DNA of 32,000 nucleotides from Paenibacillus pinihumi DSM 23905 = JCM 16419 (GCF_000422505.1 NZ_AULX01000030.1:61328-93327), one strand, 5' to 3'. Positions 27,281-30,391 are shown, counted from the first letter of the stretch. Translations and numbers: made by a program. The notes: generated by a model not told the origin, from the sequence alone.

Positions 27281-30200
27281 CTATACTAATTTACCCATTT
27301 CCAGCTTAATGACTTTATCAGCAATAGAATAATATTTATCGTCATGAGTGATTGCTATGACACACTTTTCCCTTGCTTTCAATTCCGGAAGCAAATACTC
27401 GTAAAAGAAACTTCTAAATTCGGGATCCTGATCTGCAGCCCACTCATCAAAGAAATAAATCTTTCTATCTTCCAAATAACTGACCAAAAGTGCCAGTCTC
27501 TTTCTTTGTCCGCTTGATAGTTTAGTTGTACTGAATACTCCATTATCAATACTCAACTTATCTTCAATACGTAGTTTTGTTAACAGTTCCTTCATCAGTT
27601 CTGCTTTACCCACATAATCAATTCCGTATAATTTTTCAAACAAGAAATAATCACTCAGAACTGTCGAATAATACTGATATAATTCATCAGATTCAACTTT
27701 AACGTTGTTGAGTGTTATTTCACCCGTATCCGGCTTATAAAGCCCTGTAATAAGTTTTGCAAGCGTTGATTTACCACTCCCGTTTCCTCCAGTGATAAAT
27801 GTAATTTCACCTGATTTGAAAGTGCAGCTAACGGGTCCTACTTTGAAAACTTCGTCTTTACTGTTTTTGTAACTGTATTCTACATTGTTTAACTCCAATT
27901 TGTACTGATTTCCCAAGCCAGCTCCTGCATCTAATGTCTTATCACTTTTAATCGTCTCTGAAGAATCTATTTCTTTTATTAATTGATTTAATCTTTTATA
28001 ACTTATTTTCGCAAAAACGATTTGTGGAATTGAATCCAGAACTCCATGAATTGGCCCCGTCATATACAGAAAGACAAATACATAATTAGTTAAAGAACTG
28101 GCTGGAATGTCTTTGAAAAGTATAGGAAAAATAAATGCTACAACTCCAATTACTAATGTAAAAAGTAGTTCACCTATAACAAAAACATTTGCAAAACCAA
28201 GATCACCCTTGATCCGCTTGTCTTTATATTCTTTACTGCTTGCTTGCATATCGTCTCTAAATTCACTTTGTCTTTTGCTATGCATTTTAAGTTCTTTAAA
28301 ACCATTGATTAAACTATTTATGAATTTAAAAAAATCATTTTGAATATCTCTTGTCTCTTCCCATAGCTTGTTCGCATGTCTGCTCACCAAAAAATATAAA
28401 CCTGCTGCAACAATGATTACAATTATTGAAATCAACAAGCCATAAATATTTATTATCCCTAAATAAACAAAGCAACAAATTAGTGTTACCAAGCTAGTTG
28501 CCGCATTGATAATTATATTCGCAAAATGACTAATCGTTTCCGTATCATTGTTTAGGCCGGCTTGTATTTTTTCATTTTCTATTTGCTCAATTTTTTCATA
28601 AGAAGATCCCAGAATTTTATTGATAAGTAAAATTCTCTTATTATAAACCAATTCATTTGTCAACTTTAAAAGCTTAATTCTAACCAACCGCTGCCCATAC
28701 ACATAGATTACAATACTCATAAAAAAAAACAGTAATAATCCGGATTGAAAGCTTTCTGTTCTATTCAATGCCTCATTAATTATAAATATGATGATTGCAT
28801 TACCAAAGCCACTAACTATACTTAAAGCTGTAATGACAAAAATGGATTTATCATTACTCTTCTTGAATATTGTGGTAAGAAAATAATATATGCAAAATAA
28901 TACTATTGTAATAAATAGCGAAAAAATTGCTATTATAAGGCTCTGCGGAGCCCAAACTTTAATAAAATCCCACGGAAGTCCAAAATATAAAACATCAGGT
29001 ATTCTATAAAAACAATATCCTATACCCGATGTAAAAATCAAAAGAATCAATAAACTAATAATTGTCCTTTTAGAATGCCCGATATACTTTCTTTTACTCT
29101 GAATGATTTGAATTAATAAAAGAATCAACAAATAAACAGAAATTAACAATACCGGTAGAGATATTATGACTATCATAAACGAAGCGTTATCAATCGAAAT
29201 GTACTGATCAGAAATATTCTCCCTTGGTCTTTCTCCCTGAATAATTTTATCTATACCGTCTGCAATTGAATTCGTATAGGAAGAATTTAAGTTAGCAAGA
29301 ATACCTAACCCCAATTTTTCTTGAGGCCTAAACCTAATATCTGAAGAAAAATTTGGATTGCTTCCATCATGGGCAATCATTCCGCCACCATACTGATATA
29401 CAGACCACCCATATGCATAAGATGATCCATCCTCACCAGGAGCTACTGTTCGATCAGGTAGATGAGAAATATCTATTAAGTCGTTGTCAAATTTCATTGC
29501 GTTTTCAGTACCAAGCTGTATTTTAATCCATTTTGCCAAGTCTTCAGCATTTGTAATAATATATCCTGCAGGAGTATTACCTCTGTAGACGGGTGCGTTG
29601 TATTCTGCCGGCTTAAGAAATCTTACTTTATAGCCCTTTGAAAAATTATTTTCAGCCGCTTCATTGCTTGACATATATGTGTTATTAAGCCCTAATTCTT
29701 CTATGATATATTTTCTCATATAGTCTTCATATGACATATTTGAAACAATTTGCATAACAAGTCCAAGGACATCATAATTTATGGTTGCATAAAGATATTT
29801 TTCTCCGGGATAAAAATCAAGCTTTTTACCTACTTGGGTCCTTACAGTGTTTTCTAGCGCATTATCGCTTTCATCAATGGGAATATCTCCAATTGATTTA
29901 AAGGGAATTCCGCTTGTATGATGTAATAAATGCTTTAATGTAATATCCACATATTCGTCAATTTGTTTACCTTTATAATTGCCTATATACTTCATTTTGA
30001 ACCAAGGTATATATTTGCTTACTGGTTCATCTAAATTTATCAGACCCTCTTTTTCGAGTCTAAGTATCCCAAGAGCAGTAAACGCTTTACTTGCGGACCC
30101 AAGCTCAAATAAAGTCTCTGAAGTTACGGGTTTCTCTGATTTAATATCCGAATATCCAAATCCTTTACTATAAACCGTTTTATCTCCCTCAACGATTACA

Positions 30201-30391
30201 ACGGATACACCAGGGATTTTCCCATCCTTCATGTTCTTTTTTATCCACGACTCAATACGCTCAATCTTCTCTTCAGTCAAGACGGATGATTCAGAATAAT
30301 CTGCTCTTTGACTAGTCTCGGCAAATACCGAATTTGAAAACGCAATAATACTTACCAGTATTGACAGAAATGCGATAAATCCTTTTTTCAT
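27281..30391 (-). CDS. Fusion protein: secreted S12 (ClbP/XcnG-like, beta-lactamase-fold) peptidase + polytopic membrane domain + ABC transporter ATPase, 1036 aa
   Basis: SD TGGAGGA lies 6 nt before the ATG at 30389-30391. Signal peptide: MKKGFIAFLSILVSIIAFSNSVFA/ET. Peptidase motifs: SxxK as S99-A-S-K102 (nt 30086-30097), YATINYD, AHDGSNP. Roughly nine hydrophobic helices by eye between aa ~400 and ~790. ABC ATPase: Walker A GGNGSGKST (27764-27790), signature LSSGQ, Walker B IYFFDE, H-loop ITHD. Confidence 0.88.
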   Translation of the reverse strand: MKKGFIAFLSILVSIIAFSNSVFAETSQRADYSESSVLTEEKIERIESWIKKNMKDGKIPGVSVVIVEGDKTVYSKGFGYSDIKSEKPVTSETLFELGSASKAFTALGILRLEKEGLINLDEPVSKYIPWFKMKYIGNYKGKQIDEYVDITLKHLLHHTSGIPFKSIGDIPIDESDNALENTVRTQVGKKLDFYPGEKYLYATINYDVLGLVMQIVSNMSYEDYMRKYIIEELGLNNTYMSSNEAAENNFSKGYKVRFLKPAEYNAPVYRGNTPAGYIITNAEDLAKWIKIQLGTENAMKFDNDLIDISHLPDRTVAPGEDGSSYAYGWSVYQYGGGMIAHDGSNPNFSSDIRFRPQEKLGLGILANLNSSYTNSIADGIDKIIQGERPRENISDQYISIDNASFMIVIISLPVLLISVYLLILLLIQIIQSKRKYIGHSKRTIISLLILLIFTSGIGYCFYRIPDVLYFGLPWDFIKVWAPQSLIIAIFSLFITIVLFCIYYFLTTIFKKSNDKSIFVITALSIVSGFGNAIIIFIINEALNRTESFQSGLLLFFFMSIVIYVYGQRLVRIKLLKLTNELVYNKRILLINKILGSSYEKIEQIENEKIQAGLNNDTETISHFANIIINAATSLVTLICCFVYLGIINIYGLLISIIVIIVAAGLYFLVSRHANKLWEETRDIQNDFFKFINSLINGFKELKMHSKRQSEFRDDMQASSKEYKDKRIKGDLGFANVFVIGELLFTLVIGVVAFIFPILFKDIPASSLTNYVFVFLYMTGPIHGVLDSIPQIVFAKISYKRLNQLIKEIDSSETIKSDKTLDAGAGLGNQYKLELNNVEYSYKNSKDEVFKVGPVSCTFKSGEITFITGGNGSGKSTLAKLITGLYKPDTGEITLNNVKVESDELYQYYSTVLSDYFLFEKLYGIDYVGKAELMKELLTKLRIEDKLSIDNGVFSTTKLSSGQRKRLALLVSYLEDRKIYFFDEWAADQDPEFRSFFYEYLLPELKAREKCVIAITHDDKYYSIADKVIKLEMGKLV

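What the first reader, a model, noticed from the sequence alone, without database searches (positions are those of the whole stretch)
27281..30391. Prodrug-type S12 peptidase and ABC exporter fused into one 1036-aa protein
Seen, in a single ORF:
- a Sec signal peptide
- a beta-lactamase-fold peptidase with SxxK at S99/K102 (ClbP uses S95/K98, from memory)
- about nine hydrophobic segments
- a full ABC ATPase (Walker A, LSSGQ, Walker B, H-loop)

Established: ClbP and XcnG are membrane-anchored S12 peptidases with three C-terminal helices. They cleave an N-acyl-D-Asn prodrug motif outside the cytoplasm.

Inference: three ClbP-type helices plus six transporter helices gives nine, an odd number. 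That is what is needed to place the peptidase outside and the ATPase inside, so export and activation would be physically coupled. I recall such a fusion being noted for ZmaM, but I cannot verify this, and its mechanism has not, to my knowledge, been dissected.
Basis: partly seen in the sequence, partly recalled or inferred. Interest (0 to 1): 0.75.

Follow-up and report, generated by a model that had tools for sequence, protein, structure and literature searches.

The report
ZmaM-type prodrug peptidase–ABC exporter fusion
This gene encodes a single membrane protein that joins an antibiotic-unmasking peptidase (outside the cell) to an ATP-driven exporter (inside); the design is real, but it was published years ago for zwittermicin, paenilamicin and edeine, so this is a new example of a known kind.

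Summary
The ORF at window 27281-30391 (minus strand, 1036 aa) encodes these parts in order:
- a signal peptide;
- an S12/beta-lactamase-fold domain with SxxK at S99/K102;
- three ClbP-type transmembrane helices;
- an 8-residue cytoplasmic linker;
- a six-helix type IV ABC exporter domain;
- a complete nucleotide-binding domain.

- Every residue that defines N-acyl-D-Asn prodrug peptidases in the ClbP structure paper is present: E96, S99, K102, Y201, T203, N272, N345, W474 and W480.
- The AlphaFold model's best PDB match is full-length ClbP.
- Nine helices and the positive-inside rule put the peptidase outside and the ATPase inside.
- The gene directly follows the T-E end of an NRPS. In a 74%-identical locus that NRPS is C-A-T-E and carries ZmaO's A-domain code.
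- The surrounding cluster is zwittermicin-like.

None of this is new. This "type II" architecture (nine helices plus an ABC domain) is attributed to Reimer et al. 2011 and was discussed again in 2022 for ZmaM, PamJ and EdeA. ZmaM has been purified and assayed. Hundreds of homologues share the architecture. The protein is 46.6% identical to ZmaM. It is a new member of a known kind, and of low interest.

The parts
27281..30391 (-). Whole gene: 1036-aa fusion of a prodrug-type S12 peptidase and an ABC half-transporter (type II architecture, ZmaM/PamJ/EdeA-like).
   Evidence: ORF. Pfam and NCBIfam hits. 46.6% identity to ZmaM over 1012 aa.
30398..30403 (-). Shine-Dalgarno GGAGGA, 6 nt upstream of the ATG at 30391.
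   Evidence: Read directly from the sequence.
30320..30391 (-). Signal peptide, aa 1-24 (MKKGFIAFLSILVSIIAFSNSVFA | ETSQ).
   Evidence: Hydropathy peak at aa 3-26. A helix at aa 2-24 followed by a disordered stretch in the AlphaFold model. The cleavage site is inferred from the V-F-A motif.
29279..30253 (-). S12 / beta-lactamase-fold peptidase domain, aa 47-371, predicted to lie outside the cytoplasm.
   Evidence: PF00144, E 7e-68. pLDDT about 90-95. Foldseek best hits are ClbP structures.
30086..30097 (-). SxxK motif S99-A-S-K102, giving the nucleophile and general base (ClbP S95/K98). E96 just upstream corresponds to ClbP E92.
   Evidence: Invariant in 50 homologues.
29783..29791 (-). Y201-A-T203, corresponding to ClbP Y186-x-S188. 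Thr in place of the S12-consensus Asn is the prodrug-peptidase signature.
   Evidence: T or S in 167 of 169 fused relatives.
29357..29359 (-). N345, corresponding to ClbP N331, the residue that enforces D-Asn specificity.
   Evidence: N in 168 of 169 fused relatives. S. aureus Flp has Leu at this position.
28868..29182 (-). ClbP-type three-helix transmembrane domain, aa 404-508 (TM1 404-428, TM2 442-465, TM3 484-508).
   Evidence: phmmer aligns aa 43-500 with full-length ClbP 7mdc. AlphaFold helices. TM-score normalised to the target is 0.87-0.89 against full-length ClbP.
28952..28972 (-). Outside-facing TM2-TM3 linker W474-D-F476-IKV-W480, corresponding to ClbP W460/F462/W466 (acyl-chain contact; W466 is essential in ClbP).
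   Evidence: W474 and W480 are invariant in alignment A1.
28844..28867 (-). Eight-residue cytoplasmic linker FKKSNDKS (aa 509-516) joining ClbP-type TM3 to ABC TM1.
   Evidence: Length is conserved at 7-10 residues in 50 homologues.
28022..28843 (-). Six-helix type IV ABC exporter transmembrane domain, aa 517-790.
   Evidence: TIGR01194 match over aa 512-1036. AlphaFold helices. Foldseek matches to MsbA, Atm1, Sav1866 and McjD.
27284..27901 (-). Nucleotide-binding domain, aa 831-1036, cytoplasmic. Contains Walker A at 868-875, LSSGQ at 958-962, Walker B with catalytic E983, and H-loop H1016.
   Evidence: PF00005, E 5e-23. Motif positions. K874, E983 and H1016 are conserved in ZmaM.
30422..32000 (-). 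3' end of the upstream NRPS gene: a thiolation (GGDS) plus epimerisation (HHxxxDG) didomain. The frame stays open to the window edge, and the stop codon lies 30 nt before the peptidase start.
   Evidence: Translation. Pfam Condensation superfamily. 64.8% identical to the C-terminus of the C-A-T-E NRPS in L013 and 38% identical to ZmaO residues 976-1497.
15372..27239 (-). Co-oriented downstream genes of the cluster. In order: type II thioesterase; FkbH/ZmaN-like; ACP (ZmaD-like); 3-hydroxyacyl-CoA dehydrogenase (ZmaG-like); ACP (ZmaH-like); acyl-CoA dehydrogenase (ZmaI-like); stand-alone A domain (ZmaJ-like); acyltransferase (ZmaF-like); carbamoyltransferase; B12-radical SAM; ACP.
   Evidence: Pfam. 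BLASTP against the B. thuringiensis HD-1 zma cluster gives 39-61% identity.
1..15125 (-). Two hybrid megasynthase genes, NRPS-PKS at 7743-15125 and PKS-NRPS at 1-7731 (the second runs off the window). They would build the compound that carries the prodrug cap.
   Evidence: Pfam. 34-35% identity to ZmaK.

Best explanation
The gene encodes a type II (ZmaM/PamJ/EdeA-type) prodrug-activating peptidase in a zwittermicin-like NRPS/PKS cluster.

Proposed mechanism:
1. The upstream initiating NRPS builds an N-acyl-D-Asn cap. Only its T-E end is in the window. The C-A(Asn)-T-E layout is inferred from close homologues.
2. The megasynthases extend this cap into an inactive precursor in the cytoplasm.
3. 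The C-terminal half of this protein is a six-helix type IV ABC exporter with a competent ATPase. It presumably acts as a homodimer and moves the capped precursor across the membrane.
4. The N-terminal S12 peptidase sits on the outer face, anchored by three ClbP-type helices that connect to ABC TM1 through an 8-residue linker. It binds the acyl chain at the W474/W480 linker and the D-Asn side chain with T203 and N345. It then cleaves after D-Asn using S99, K102 and Y201, releasing the active compound outside the cell.

Shown here: domain composition, catalytic and pocket residues, nine-helix N-out/C-in topology, the ClbP-like and exporter-like folds, homology to ZmaM, and the gene context.

Inferred: the substrate identity, that the ABC half transports that same substrate, dimerisation, and any direct hand-over between the two halves.
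For: - Domains.
- Pocket and catalytic residues: all are identical to those of ClbP or ZmaM and near-invariant in 169 fused relatives.
- N-terminal fold: AlphaFold pLDDT is 80.9, and the best PDB matches are the four full-length ClbP entries, with target-normalised TM-score 0.87-0.89 including the transmembrane domain.
- C-terminal fold: the ABC half alone matches MsbA, Atm1, Sav1866, McjD and the PCAT1 core over about 560 columns.
- Topology: nine helices, with K+R counts of 21 inside against 4 outside. The helices are conserved across 50 homologues.
- Homology to a tested enzyme: 46.6% identity to ZmaM of B. thuringiensis HD-1, whose N-terminus matches the UW85 zmaM primer. Purified ZmaM cleaves an N-acyl-D-Asn probe, and inhibiting it causes prezwittermicin to accumulate (PMC9889270).
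- Upstream gene: the gene follows an NRPS T-E terminus by 30 nt. In locus L013, whose peptidase-ABC protein is 74% identical, that NRPS is C-A-T-E with A-domain code D-L-T-K-I-G-E-V-G. ZmaO has the identical code.
- Cluster: neighbouring genes are ZmaN/D/G/H/I/J/F homologues at 39-61% identity.
- Published architecture.
Against: - The C and A domains of the window's own upstream NRPS lie outside the window, so the Asn cap is inferred from homologous loci.
- Overall sequence similarity does not single out ClbP. S. aureus Flp scores as high or higher (192.8 against 165.9 bits for the soluble domains; 340 against 298 bits with a family HMM).
- Close relatives that lack the ABC half exist in similar clusters with no adjacent ABC gene (P0121 and P0123). 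Export through the fused half is therefore not obligatory for this chemistry.
- No experiment shows that any fused ABC half transports the prodrug.
- The NBD lacks the canonical Q-loop glutamine (S913-D914). This is family-wide and its consequence is unknown.
- The AlphaFold inter-domain confidence is moderate (pTM 0.63), and the model is a monomer.
Confidence: 0.85

Rival explanations
1. The peptidase role is as above, but the fused ABC half does not export the capped precursor. It could instead pump out mature compound that re-enters the cell, as a self-resistance efflux in the way McjD and YojI act for microcin J25. Alternatively its ATPase cycle could gate or regulate the peptidase, with another transporter doing the export.
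For: - Stand-alone peptidases nest among fused ones and work in clusters with no adjacent ABC gene.
- The ABC half also matches NF007813 (PRK10522, 'multidrug ABC transporter permease/ATP-binding protein'), though below its cutoff at 334 against 604 bits. I recall PRK10522 as the YojI family; the tool output does not name YojI.
- McjD is among the fold matches.
- No ZmaR-type acetyltransferase resistance gene is visible in the window.
Against: - No other transporter gene is present in the 32-kb window.
- The TM3-to-ABC-TM1 linker is conserved at 7-10 residues, and the fusion is maintained in more than 160 relatives. Both argue for a functional coupling.
- The best-scoring family is TIGR01194. 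From memory, that family includes PvdE, the exporter of an acylated pyoverdine precursor that is later deacylated in the periplasm.
Confidence: 0.1
2. The N-terminal domain is a housekeeping or resistance S12 enzyme, such as an Flp/FmtA-like esterase, a low-molecular-weight PBP or a class C beta-lactamase. It happens to be fused to a peptide exporter and has no link to prodrug cleavage.
For: - S. aureus Flp (4gdn) is the top PDB sequence hit, at E 7e-56.
- Flp scores above E. coli ClbP with a family HMM.
- There are weak NCBIfam matches to class C beta-lactamases and PBP4B.
Against: - The YxN motif is Y-A-T here, not Y-x-N. Flp has N at the ClbP S188 position and L at the N331 position, whereas this protein has T203 and N345.
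- The class C beta-lactamase model scores 106 bits against a cutoff of 415.
- The ClbP-type three-helix domain with both conserved Trp residues is present.
- The best structural match is full-length ClbP.
- The gene sits between an NRPS E domain and the tailoring genes of a zma-like cluster.
- The ZmaM homologue has demonstrated N-acyl-D-Asn peptidase activity.
Confidence: 0.03
3. The single ORF is an assembly or sequencing artefact that joins two adjacent genes, a ClbP-like peptidase and a separate ABC transporter.
For: Stand-alone peptidases of about 510 aa that end right after TM3 exist among close relatives.
Against: - The 120 best database hits are all about 1030 aa and carry both Pfam domains. 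They come from many genera, including complete genomes.
- The junction is collinear and conserved in alignment A1.
- ZmaM has been expressed and purified as one polypeptide.
Confidence: 0.01

Closest known systems
ZmaM (zwittermicin A cluster, Bacillus cereus UW85 / B. thuringiensis HD-1 pBMB431)
   Same: - It has the same full-length architecture: signal peptide, S12 peptidase, 3 + 6 helices and an ABC NBD.
- It is 46.6% identical over 1012 aa.
- Residues are identical at every catalytic, D-Asn-pocket and ATPase position checked.
- Both lie in clusters with ZmaN/D/G/H/I/J/F-type genes and a ZmaO-type NRPS.
   Different: - Identity is only 46.6%.
- The gene order differs. Here the peptidase gene directly follows the ZmaO-like NRPS. 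In zma it lies between zmaL and zmaN.
- The window cluster adds a B12-radical SAM enzyme next to a carbamoyltransferase.
- The window shows no ZmaR, ZmaL or SbnA/B homologues, so the product is probably a different aminopolyol.
PamJ (paenilamicin) and EdeA (edeine), the other named type II prodrug peptidases
   Same: [quoted passage not shown] Paenibacillus and Brevibacillus homologues match at 55-74% identity.
   Different: Their clusters and products differ. I did not retrieve the exact PamJ or EdeA sequences, so their identity to this protein was not measured.
ClbP (colibactin) and XcnG (xenocoumacin), the type I prodrug peptidases
   Same: - They share the S12 fold, the catalytic S/K/Y residues, the D-Asn pocket (E92, S188, N331) and the three-helix transmembrane domain with W460/W466.
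- phmmer aligns aa 43-500 with full-length ClbP.
- Foldseek gives a target-normalised TM-score of 0.87-0.89.
   Different: - They have no ABC half. Colibactin export uses a separate transporter, ClbM (named in PMC9889268).
- Identity to ClbP is only about 27-30%.
- ClbP has H257 where this protein has N272.
- The ClbP dimer interface is reported to be specific to proteobacterial ClbPs.
TIGR01194 cyclic-peptide/siderophore-precursor ABC exporters (from memory: PvdE, SyrD; related YojI)
   Same: The C-terminal 525 aa score 371 bits, above the family cutoff of 286, and have the type IV exporter fold. From memory, PvdE exports an N-acylated NRPS product that is deacylated outside the cytoplasm, which is the same logic carried out by separate proteins.
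   Different: Those transporters are stand-alone half-transporters of about 550 aa with no peptidase. The pyoverdine deacylase PvdQ is an unrelated Ntn hydrolase.
PCATs (peptidase-containing ABC transporters, such as PCAT1 and the HlyB/LssB relatives)
   Same: The concept is the same: a peptidase and an ABC exporter in one polypeptide, coupling leader removal to export. The PCAT1 core is among the fold matches for the ABC half.
   Different: - The PCAT peptidase is a cytoplasmic C39 cysteine protease that cuts a ribosomal leader before or during transport.
- Here the peptidase is an extracytoplasmic S12 serine enzyme that acts after transport on a non-ribosomal N-acyl-D-Asn cap.
- The PCAT-type NCBIfam models score far below their cutoffs: TIGR03796 at 87 against 853 bits, and NF045998 at 112 against 500 bits.
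S. aureus Flp (FmtA-like protein, PDB 4gdn)
   Same: It is the highest-scoring solved structure by sequence for the soluble domain (E 7e-56) and has the same S12 fold.
   Different: It has the canonical Y-S-N motif and Leu at the N331 position. It has no NRPS context. The crystallised chain contains neither the transmembrane region nor the W/W linker.

Membership tests
N-acyl-D-Asn prodrug-activating S12 peptidases (ClbP/XcnG/ZmaM family) | S12 fold with the catalytic Ser-x-x-Lys and Tyr (ClbP S95, K98, Y186). | tested here: met
   S99, K102 and Y201 are aligned to ClbP and invariant in 50 homologues. PF00144 matches at E 7e-68.
N-acyl-D-Asn prodrug-activating S12 peptidases (ClbP/XcnG/ZmaM family) | D-Asn pocket: Ser/Thr (not Asn) at ClbP 188, Asn at 331, Glu at 92, and His/Asn at 257 (criteria from PMC9889268). 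| tested here: met
   T203, N345, E96 and N272 are present. ZmaM has the same residues. Flp fails at positions 188 and 331.
N-acyl-D-Asn prodrug-activating S12 peptidases (ClbP/XcnG/ZmaM family) | A three-helix transmembrane domain after the catalytic domain, with conserved Trp residues (ClbP W460, W466) in the TM2-TM3 linker. | tested here: met
   Helices lie at 404-428, 442-465 and 484-508. W474 and W480 are invariant. The fold match to full-length ClbP gives a target-normalised TM-score of 0.87-0.89.
N-acyl-D-Asn prodrug-activating S12 peptidases (ClbP/XcnG/ZmaM family) | Encoded with an initiating NRPS module C(starter)-A(Asn)-T-E that makes the N-acyl-D-Asn cap. | tested here: inconclusive
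   Only the T-E end is inside the window (30422-32000). It is 64.8% identical to the C-terminus of the C-A-T-E NRPS of L013, whose A-domain code D-L-T-K-I-G-E-V-G equals ZmaO's. The window's own C and A domains were not recoverable.
N-acyl-D-Asn prodrug-activating S12 peptidases (ClbP/XcnG/ZmaM family) | Hydrolysis of N-acyl-D-Asn substrates, with capped precursor accumulating when the enzyme is inactivated. | not testable with these tools
   This has been shown for ZmaM and ClbP, but not for this protein.
Type II prodrug peptidases (ZmaM/PamJ/EdeA: peptidase plus nine helices plus ABC domain) | Nine transmembrane helices followed by a cytoplasmic ABC nucleotide-binding domain in the same polypeptide. 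| tested here: met
   The AlphaFold model shows 3 + 6 helices. Positive-inside counts are 21 against 4. The helices are conserved in 50 homologues. The NBD motifs are intact. The definition is quoted.
TIGR01194 cyclic peptide export ABC transporters / type IV ABC exporter fold | Score above the curated cutoff, and a six-helix domain plus NBD with the exporter fold. | tested here: met
   371 bits against a cutoff of 286.2, over aa 512-1036. Foldseek matches MsbA, Atm1, Sav1866, McjD and TM287/288 over about 560 columns, with TM-scores of 0.5-0.63.
Class C beta-lactamases / Flp-FmtA-like S12 proteins | The canonical YxN second motif and a score above the curated family cutoffs. | tested here: not met
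   The motif is Y-A-T. NF033085 bla_class_C scores 106 bits against 415, and PBP4B scores 81 against 385.
PCAT-type peptidase-containing ABC transporters | An N-terminal cytoplasmic C39 cysteine peptidase domain. | tested here: not met
   No C39 hit appears in Pfam. TIGR03796 and NF045998 match only the ABC part and fall far below their cutoffs.

The most novel reading that the evidence does not exclude
Two readings beyond 'another ZmaM' remain open.

(a) The ABC half may be a detachable module. In a neighbour-joining tree of the peptidase domain, stand-alone peptidases of about 510 aa nest inside fused clades. P0121 is sister to the 19-member fused clade that holds this protein. Fitch parsimony needs at least 40 fused/unfused changes among 269 sequences. 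Two of the stand-alone forms were verified as intact genes in similar clusters with no ABC gene adjacent. If this holds up, natural fused and unfused near-relatives could be used to test what physical coupling of export and cleavage actually contributes.

(b) The cluster may make a previously undescribed zwittermicin-type aminopolyol. It has a B12-radical SAM enzyme and a low-GC carbamoyltransferase flanking a transposase remnant.
Probability: 0.3. Interest if true: 0.4.

Novelty: new member of a known kind. Interest (0 to 1): 0.2.

Why it matters
Prodrug capping with N-acyl-D-Asn, followed by cleavage outside the cytoplasm, is a general self-protection strategy. [quoted passage not shown] A gene of this type is a reliable marker that a cluster makes a toxic product released only outside the cell. 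The ClbP-type boronic acid inhibitors already used on ZmaM and on a Brevibacillus edeine producer could be used to trap this cluster's precursor and identify its product.

The fused form also remains the best system for asking whether export and activation are mechanically coupled, because no structure of a fused member turned up in the PDB searches. That question can already be asked with ZmaM, so this locus adds one more divergent example rather than a new question.

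Tried and rejected
- **Finding the source contig.** I wanted it in order to read the upstream C and A domains. The exact-protein look-up found nothing. The genome-contig scan gave only a 73%-identical partial MAG contig plus distant ABC transporters. 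An exact 47-mer scan of metagenome contigs found nothing. I used homologous loci L012-L016 and L018 instead.
- **Phylogenetic placement by overall similarity.** This did not separate ClbP from Flp (pairwise distances 1.38 and 1.36; HMM scores). I rejected it as a membership criterion in favour of the published pocket residues. The neighbour-joining tree has no bootstrap support, and its count of 40 fusion changes is only indicative.
- **Rfam scan of the whole window.** There were no hits at gathering threshold. In particular, the 440-bp gap upstream of the B12-radical SAM gene showed no Rfam hit, so no riboswitch was found there.
- **P0096 as ZmaM.** I considered this Bacillus wiedmannii protein (52% identity), but its N-terminus does not match the UW85 primer. 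The HD-1 plasmid copy does match, so I used that one.
- **Membrane sidedness from the AlphaFold model.** Sidedness therefore rests on helix count, loop charges and homology to ClbP and to exporters.

Full report
**1. The observation**

The ORF is real and lies exactly where the finding says, on the minus strand (27281-30391, 1036 aa). It starts at an ATG 6 nt downstream of a GGAGGA Shine-Dalgarno. That ATG lies 30 nt after the stop codon of the preceding gene.

Domain hits:
- Pfam finds Beta-lactamase (PF00144) at aa 47-371, E 7e-68.
- Pfam finds ABC_tran at aa 853-985, E 5e-23.
- NCBIfam places aa 512-1036 in TIGR01194, 'cyclic peptide export ABC transporter', at 371 bits against a cutoff of 286.

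Motifs:
- SxxK is S99-A-S-K102.
- Walker A is GGNGSGKS at 868-875.
- The ABC signature LSSGQ is at 958-962.
- Walker B ends in D982-E983.
- The H-loop histidine is H1016.

**2. Is the N-terminal domain a prodrug peptidase or a generic S12 enzyme?**

Overall similarity does not settle this.
- The best solved-structure hit by sequence is S. aureus Flp (4gdn, 192.8 bits).
- Full-length ClbP scores 191.5 bits, and the ClbP soluble domain alone scores 165.9 bits.
- A family HMM built from 270 relatives scores Flp at 340 bits and E. coli ClbP at 298 bits.

The ClbP structure paper gives sharper criteria.
- In prodrug-activating peptidases, position 188 is Ser or Thr rather than the S12-consensus Asn.
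- N331 is strictly conserved and enforces D-Asn specificity.
- E92 orients N331.
- Position 257 is His or Asn.
- W460 and W466 in the TM2-TM3 linker are the conserved transmembrane-domain residues, and W466 is essential.

The window protein has T203, N345, E96, N272, W474 and W480 at those positions. All of them are invariant in a 50-sequence alignment and near-invariant in 169 fused relatives. Flp has Asn at position 188 and Leu at position 331.

The phmmer alignment to full-length ClbP runs through all three transmembrane helices (aa 43-500). An AlphaFold model (pLDDT 80.9, pTM 0.63) has the four full-length ClbP entries as its best PDB matches. The target-normalised TM-score is 0.87-0.89.

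**3. Topology**

The model has three helices after the peptidase domain (396-430, 440-462, 483-508) and then six long helices (517-543, 550-595, 606-647, 651-696, 705-758, 764-809) before the NBD.

With the peptidase outside, the loops predicted to be cytoplasmic carry 21 K+R. The loops predicted to be outside carry 4.

All nine hydrophobic segments are conserved in 50 homologues. So is the 7-10-residue linker between ClbP-type TM3 and ABC TM1.

Folded alone, the C-terminal half (pTM 0.76) matches type IV ABC exporters over about 560 aligned columns covering both the membrane domain and the NBD. The matches include MsbA, Atm1, Sav1866, McjD, the PCAT1 core and TM287/288.

**4. Context**

Every substantial gene in the window is on the minus strand and belongs to one NRPS/PKS cluster.

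The gene immediately upstream ends in a thiolation-epimerisation didomain, and its frame stays open to the window edge. I could not recover the source contig.

The closest full-context homologue is locus L013, whose peptidase-ABC protein is 74% identical. There the upstream gene is a 1504-aa C-A-T-E NRPS, and the window fragment is 64.8% identical to its C-terminus. Its A-domain specificity residues, extracted by motif anchoring, are D-L-T-K-I-G-E-V-G. They are identical to those of ZmaO and of the NRPSs upstream of two stand-alone relatives. ZmaO is the module proposed to make the N-acyl-D-Asn cap of prezwittermicin (PMC8264950). That this code means Asn rests on my memory of published codes and on ZmaO's assignment.

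The downstream genes are homologues of the following:

| zma gene | Identity |
|---|---|
| ZmaN | 61% |
| ZmaD | 58% |
| ZmaG | 59% |
| ZmaH | 60% |
| ZmaI | 53% |
| ZmaJ | 50% |
| ZmaF | 39% |

The two megasynthases resemble ZmaK (34-35%).

The reference was the zwittermicin cluster on B. thuringiensis HD-1 plasmid pBMB431. Its ZmaM begins MKLNIWLKFIIL, exactly as encoded by the UW85 zmaM cloning primer in PMC9889270. The window protein is 46.6% identical to that ZmaM over 1012 residues. It shares every catalytic, pocket and ATPase residue checked.

**5. Most likely mechanism**

1. A ZmaO-like starter module makes an N-acyl-D-Asn cap.
2. The assembly line extends the cap into an inactive precursor.
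3. The ABC half, presumably a homodimer like other half-transporters, exports it.
4. The outside-facing peptidase is tethered to the transporter through its three helices. It binds the acyl chain at the W474/W480 linker and the D-Asn side chain through T203 and N345. It cleaves with S99, K102 and Y201 and releases the active aminopolyol.

The anatomy and homology are shown here. Substrate identity, transport of that substrate by the ABC half, dimerisation and direct hand-over are inferred.

The main rival keeps the peptidase role but gives the ABC half a resistance or regulatory role. The evidence for it is that stand-alone peptidases exist in similar clusters with no ABC gene adjacent.

**6. 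Comparison with what is known**

The architecture is not new.
- PMC4234257 reports that Reimer et al. (2011) defined two architecture types. Type I (XcnG) has a signal peptide, a peptidase domain and three helices. [quoted passage not shown]
- Velilla et al. [quoted passage not shown] They note that EdeA, PamJ and ZmaM homologues form a large subset of the family at about 1,100 aa.
- Volpe et al. 2022 purified ZmaM, assayed it with Mg-ATP present, and trapped prezwittermicin and preedeines with an inhibitor.

The family is also large.
- My search found 841 proteins at E<=1e-10.
- The top 120 all have both domains and come from Paenibacillus, Brevibacillus, Bacillus, Clostridium and other Bacillota.
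- 48 of the 150 best 50%-identity cluster representatives for the peptidase domain alone are fused forms.

What remains open in the field is the coupling mechanism. No fused member appears in the PDB by sequence or by fold, and the closest sequence match for the ABC half is only MRP4 at E 1e-19.

**7. Verdict**

This exact sequence is not in the collection, and its best hit is 77% identical. It is a new member of a known kind in a zwittermicin-like cluster with a different gene order and extra tailoring genes. Interest is low (0.2).

Two mildly interesting by-products emerged. The first is the apparent repeated loss or gain of the ABC half within the family. The second is the possibility that the cluster makes a new zwittermicin-type compound.

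Noticed in passing
window 17657-17893 (+), within the 17525-17966 gap: A 78-aa ORF looks like a fragment of an IS630-type DDE_3 transposase (PF13358, E 1e-5, 25.8 bits, just under the 28.6 cutoff). It lies in the 440-bp gap between the carbamoyltransferase and the B12-radical SAM genes, and suggests past rearrangement or insertion inside the cluster.
   Followed up: partly
window 17967-19949 (-): The carbamoyltransferase gene has a much lower GC content (28-30%) than its neighbours (36-45%) and lies next to the transposase remnant. It may have been acquired separately.
   Followed up: no
window 15372-17524 (-): A B12-binding radical SAM enzyme (540 aa) and an extra stand-alone ACP (87 aa) sit between the tailoring genes and the megasynthases. 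Neither found a homologue in the part of the B. thuringiensis zma cluster I compared. This hints at a modification absent from zwittermicin A, such as a C-methylation.
   Followed up: no
loci L015 (6001-7536) and L016 (6001-7617); tree: Stand-alone ClbP-like peptidases of 511 and 538 aa are up to 57% identical to the window's peptidase domain, closer than many fused proteins. They nest within fused clades. They are intact genes downstream of C-A-T-E NRPSs with no adjacent ABC gene. The ABC half seems to have been lost or gained repeatedly (Fitch minimum of 40 changes in 269 sequences; neighbour-joining tree, no bootstrap).
   Followed up: partly
window 27650-27655 (-), aa S913-D914: The ABC Q-loop glutamine is absent. 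The sequence is STVLSDYFLF, and the family consensus is YSAIFSDFYLF. This is family-wide, not a defect of this copy. Its functional meaning is unknown.
   Followed up: no
S. aureus Flp (PDB 4gdn) against the family: Flp scores as high as or higher than E. coli ClbP against this Bacillota peptidase family, yet it lacks the D-Asn pocket residues. Overall similarity is therefore a poor classifier for prodrug peptidases, and pocket residues are needed.
   Followed up: partly
loci L013 (14512-16810) and L014 (8202-10500): In the 74%-identical homologous cluster, a two-gene mobile-element insertion (an IstB_IS21 gene plus a Mu-transpos_C_2 gene) sits right after the thioesterase gene. It separates the peptidase-ABC/TE pair from the precursor-supply genes.
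   Followed up: no
window 30422-32000 (-): The ORF lister reports this gene as a 488-aa ORF starting at a GTG at 31888. The reading frame is in fact open to the window edge and encodes a PCP (GGDS) before the E domain. It is the truncated 3' end of a large NRPS gene, not a stand-alone condensation protein.
   Followed up: yes
window 1-15000 against 25000-32000: GC content is uneven within the cluster. The megasynthase genes run at 39-45%, while the peptidase-ABC, thioesterase, FkbH-like and NRPS T-E region runs at 30-36%.
   Followed up: no
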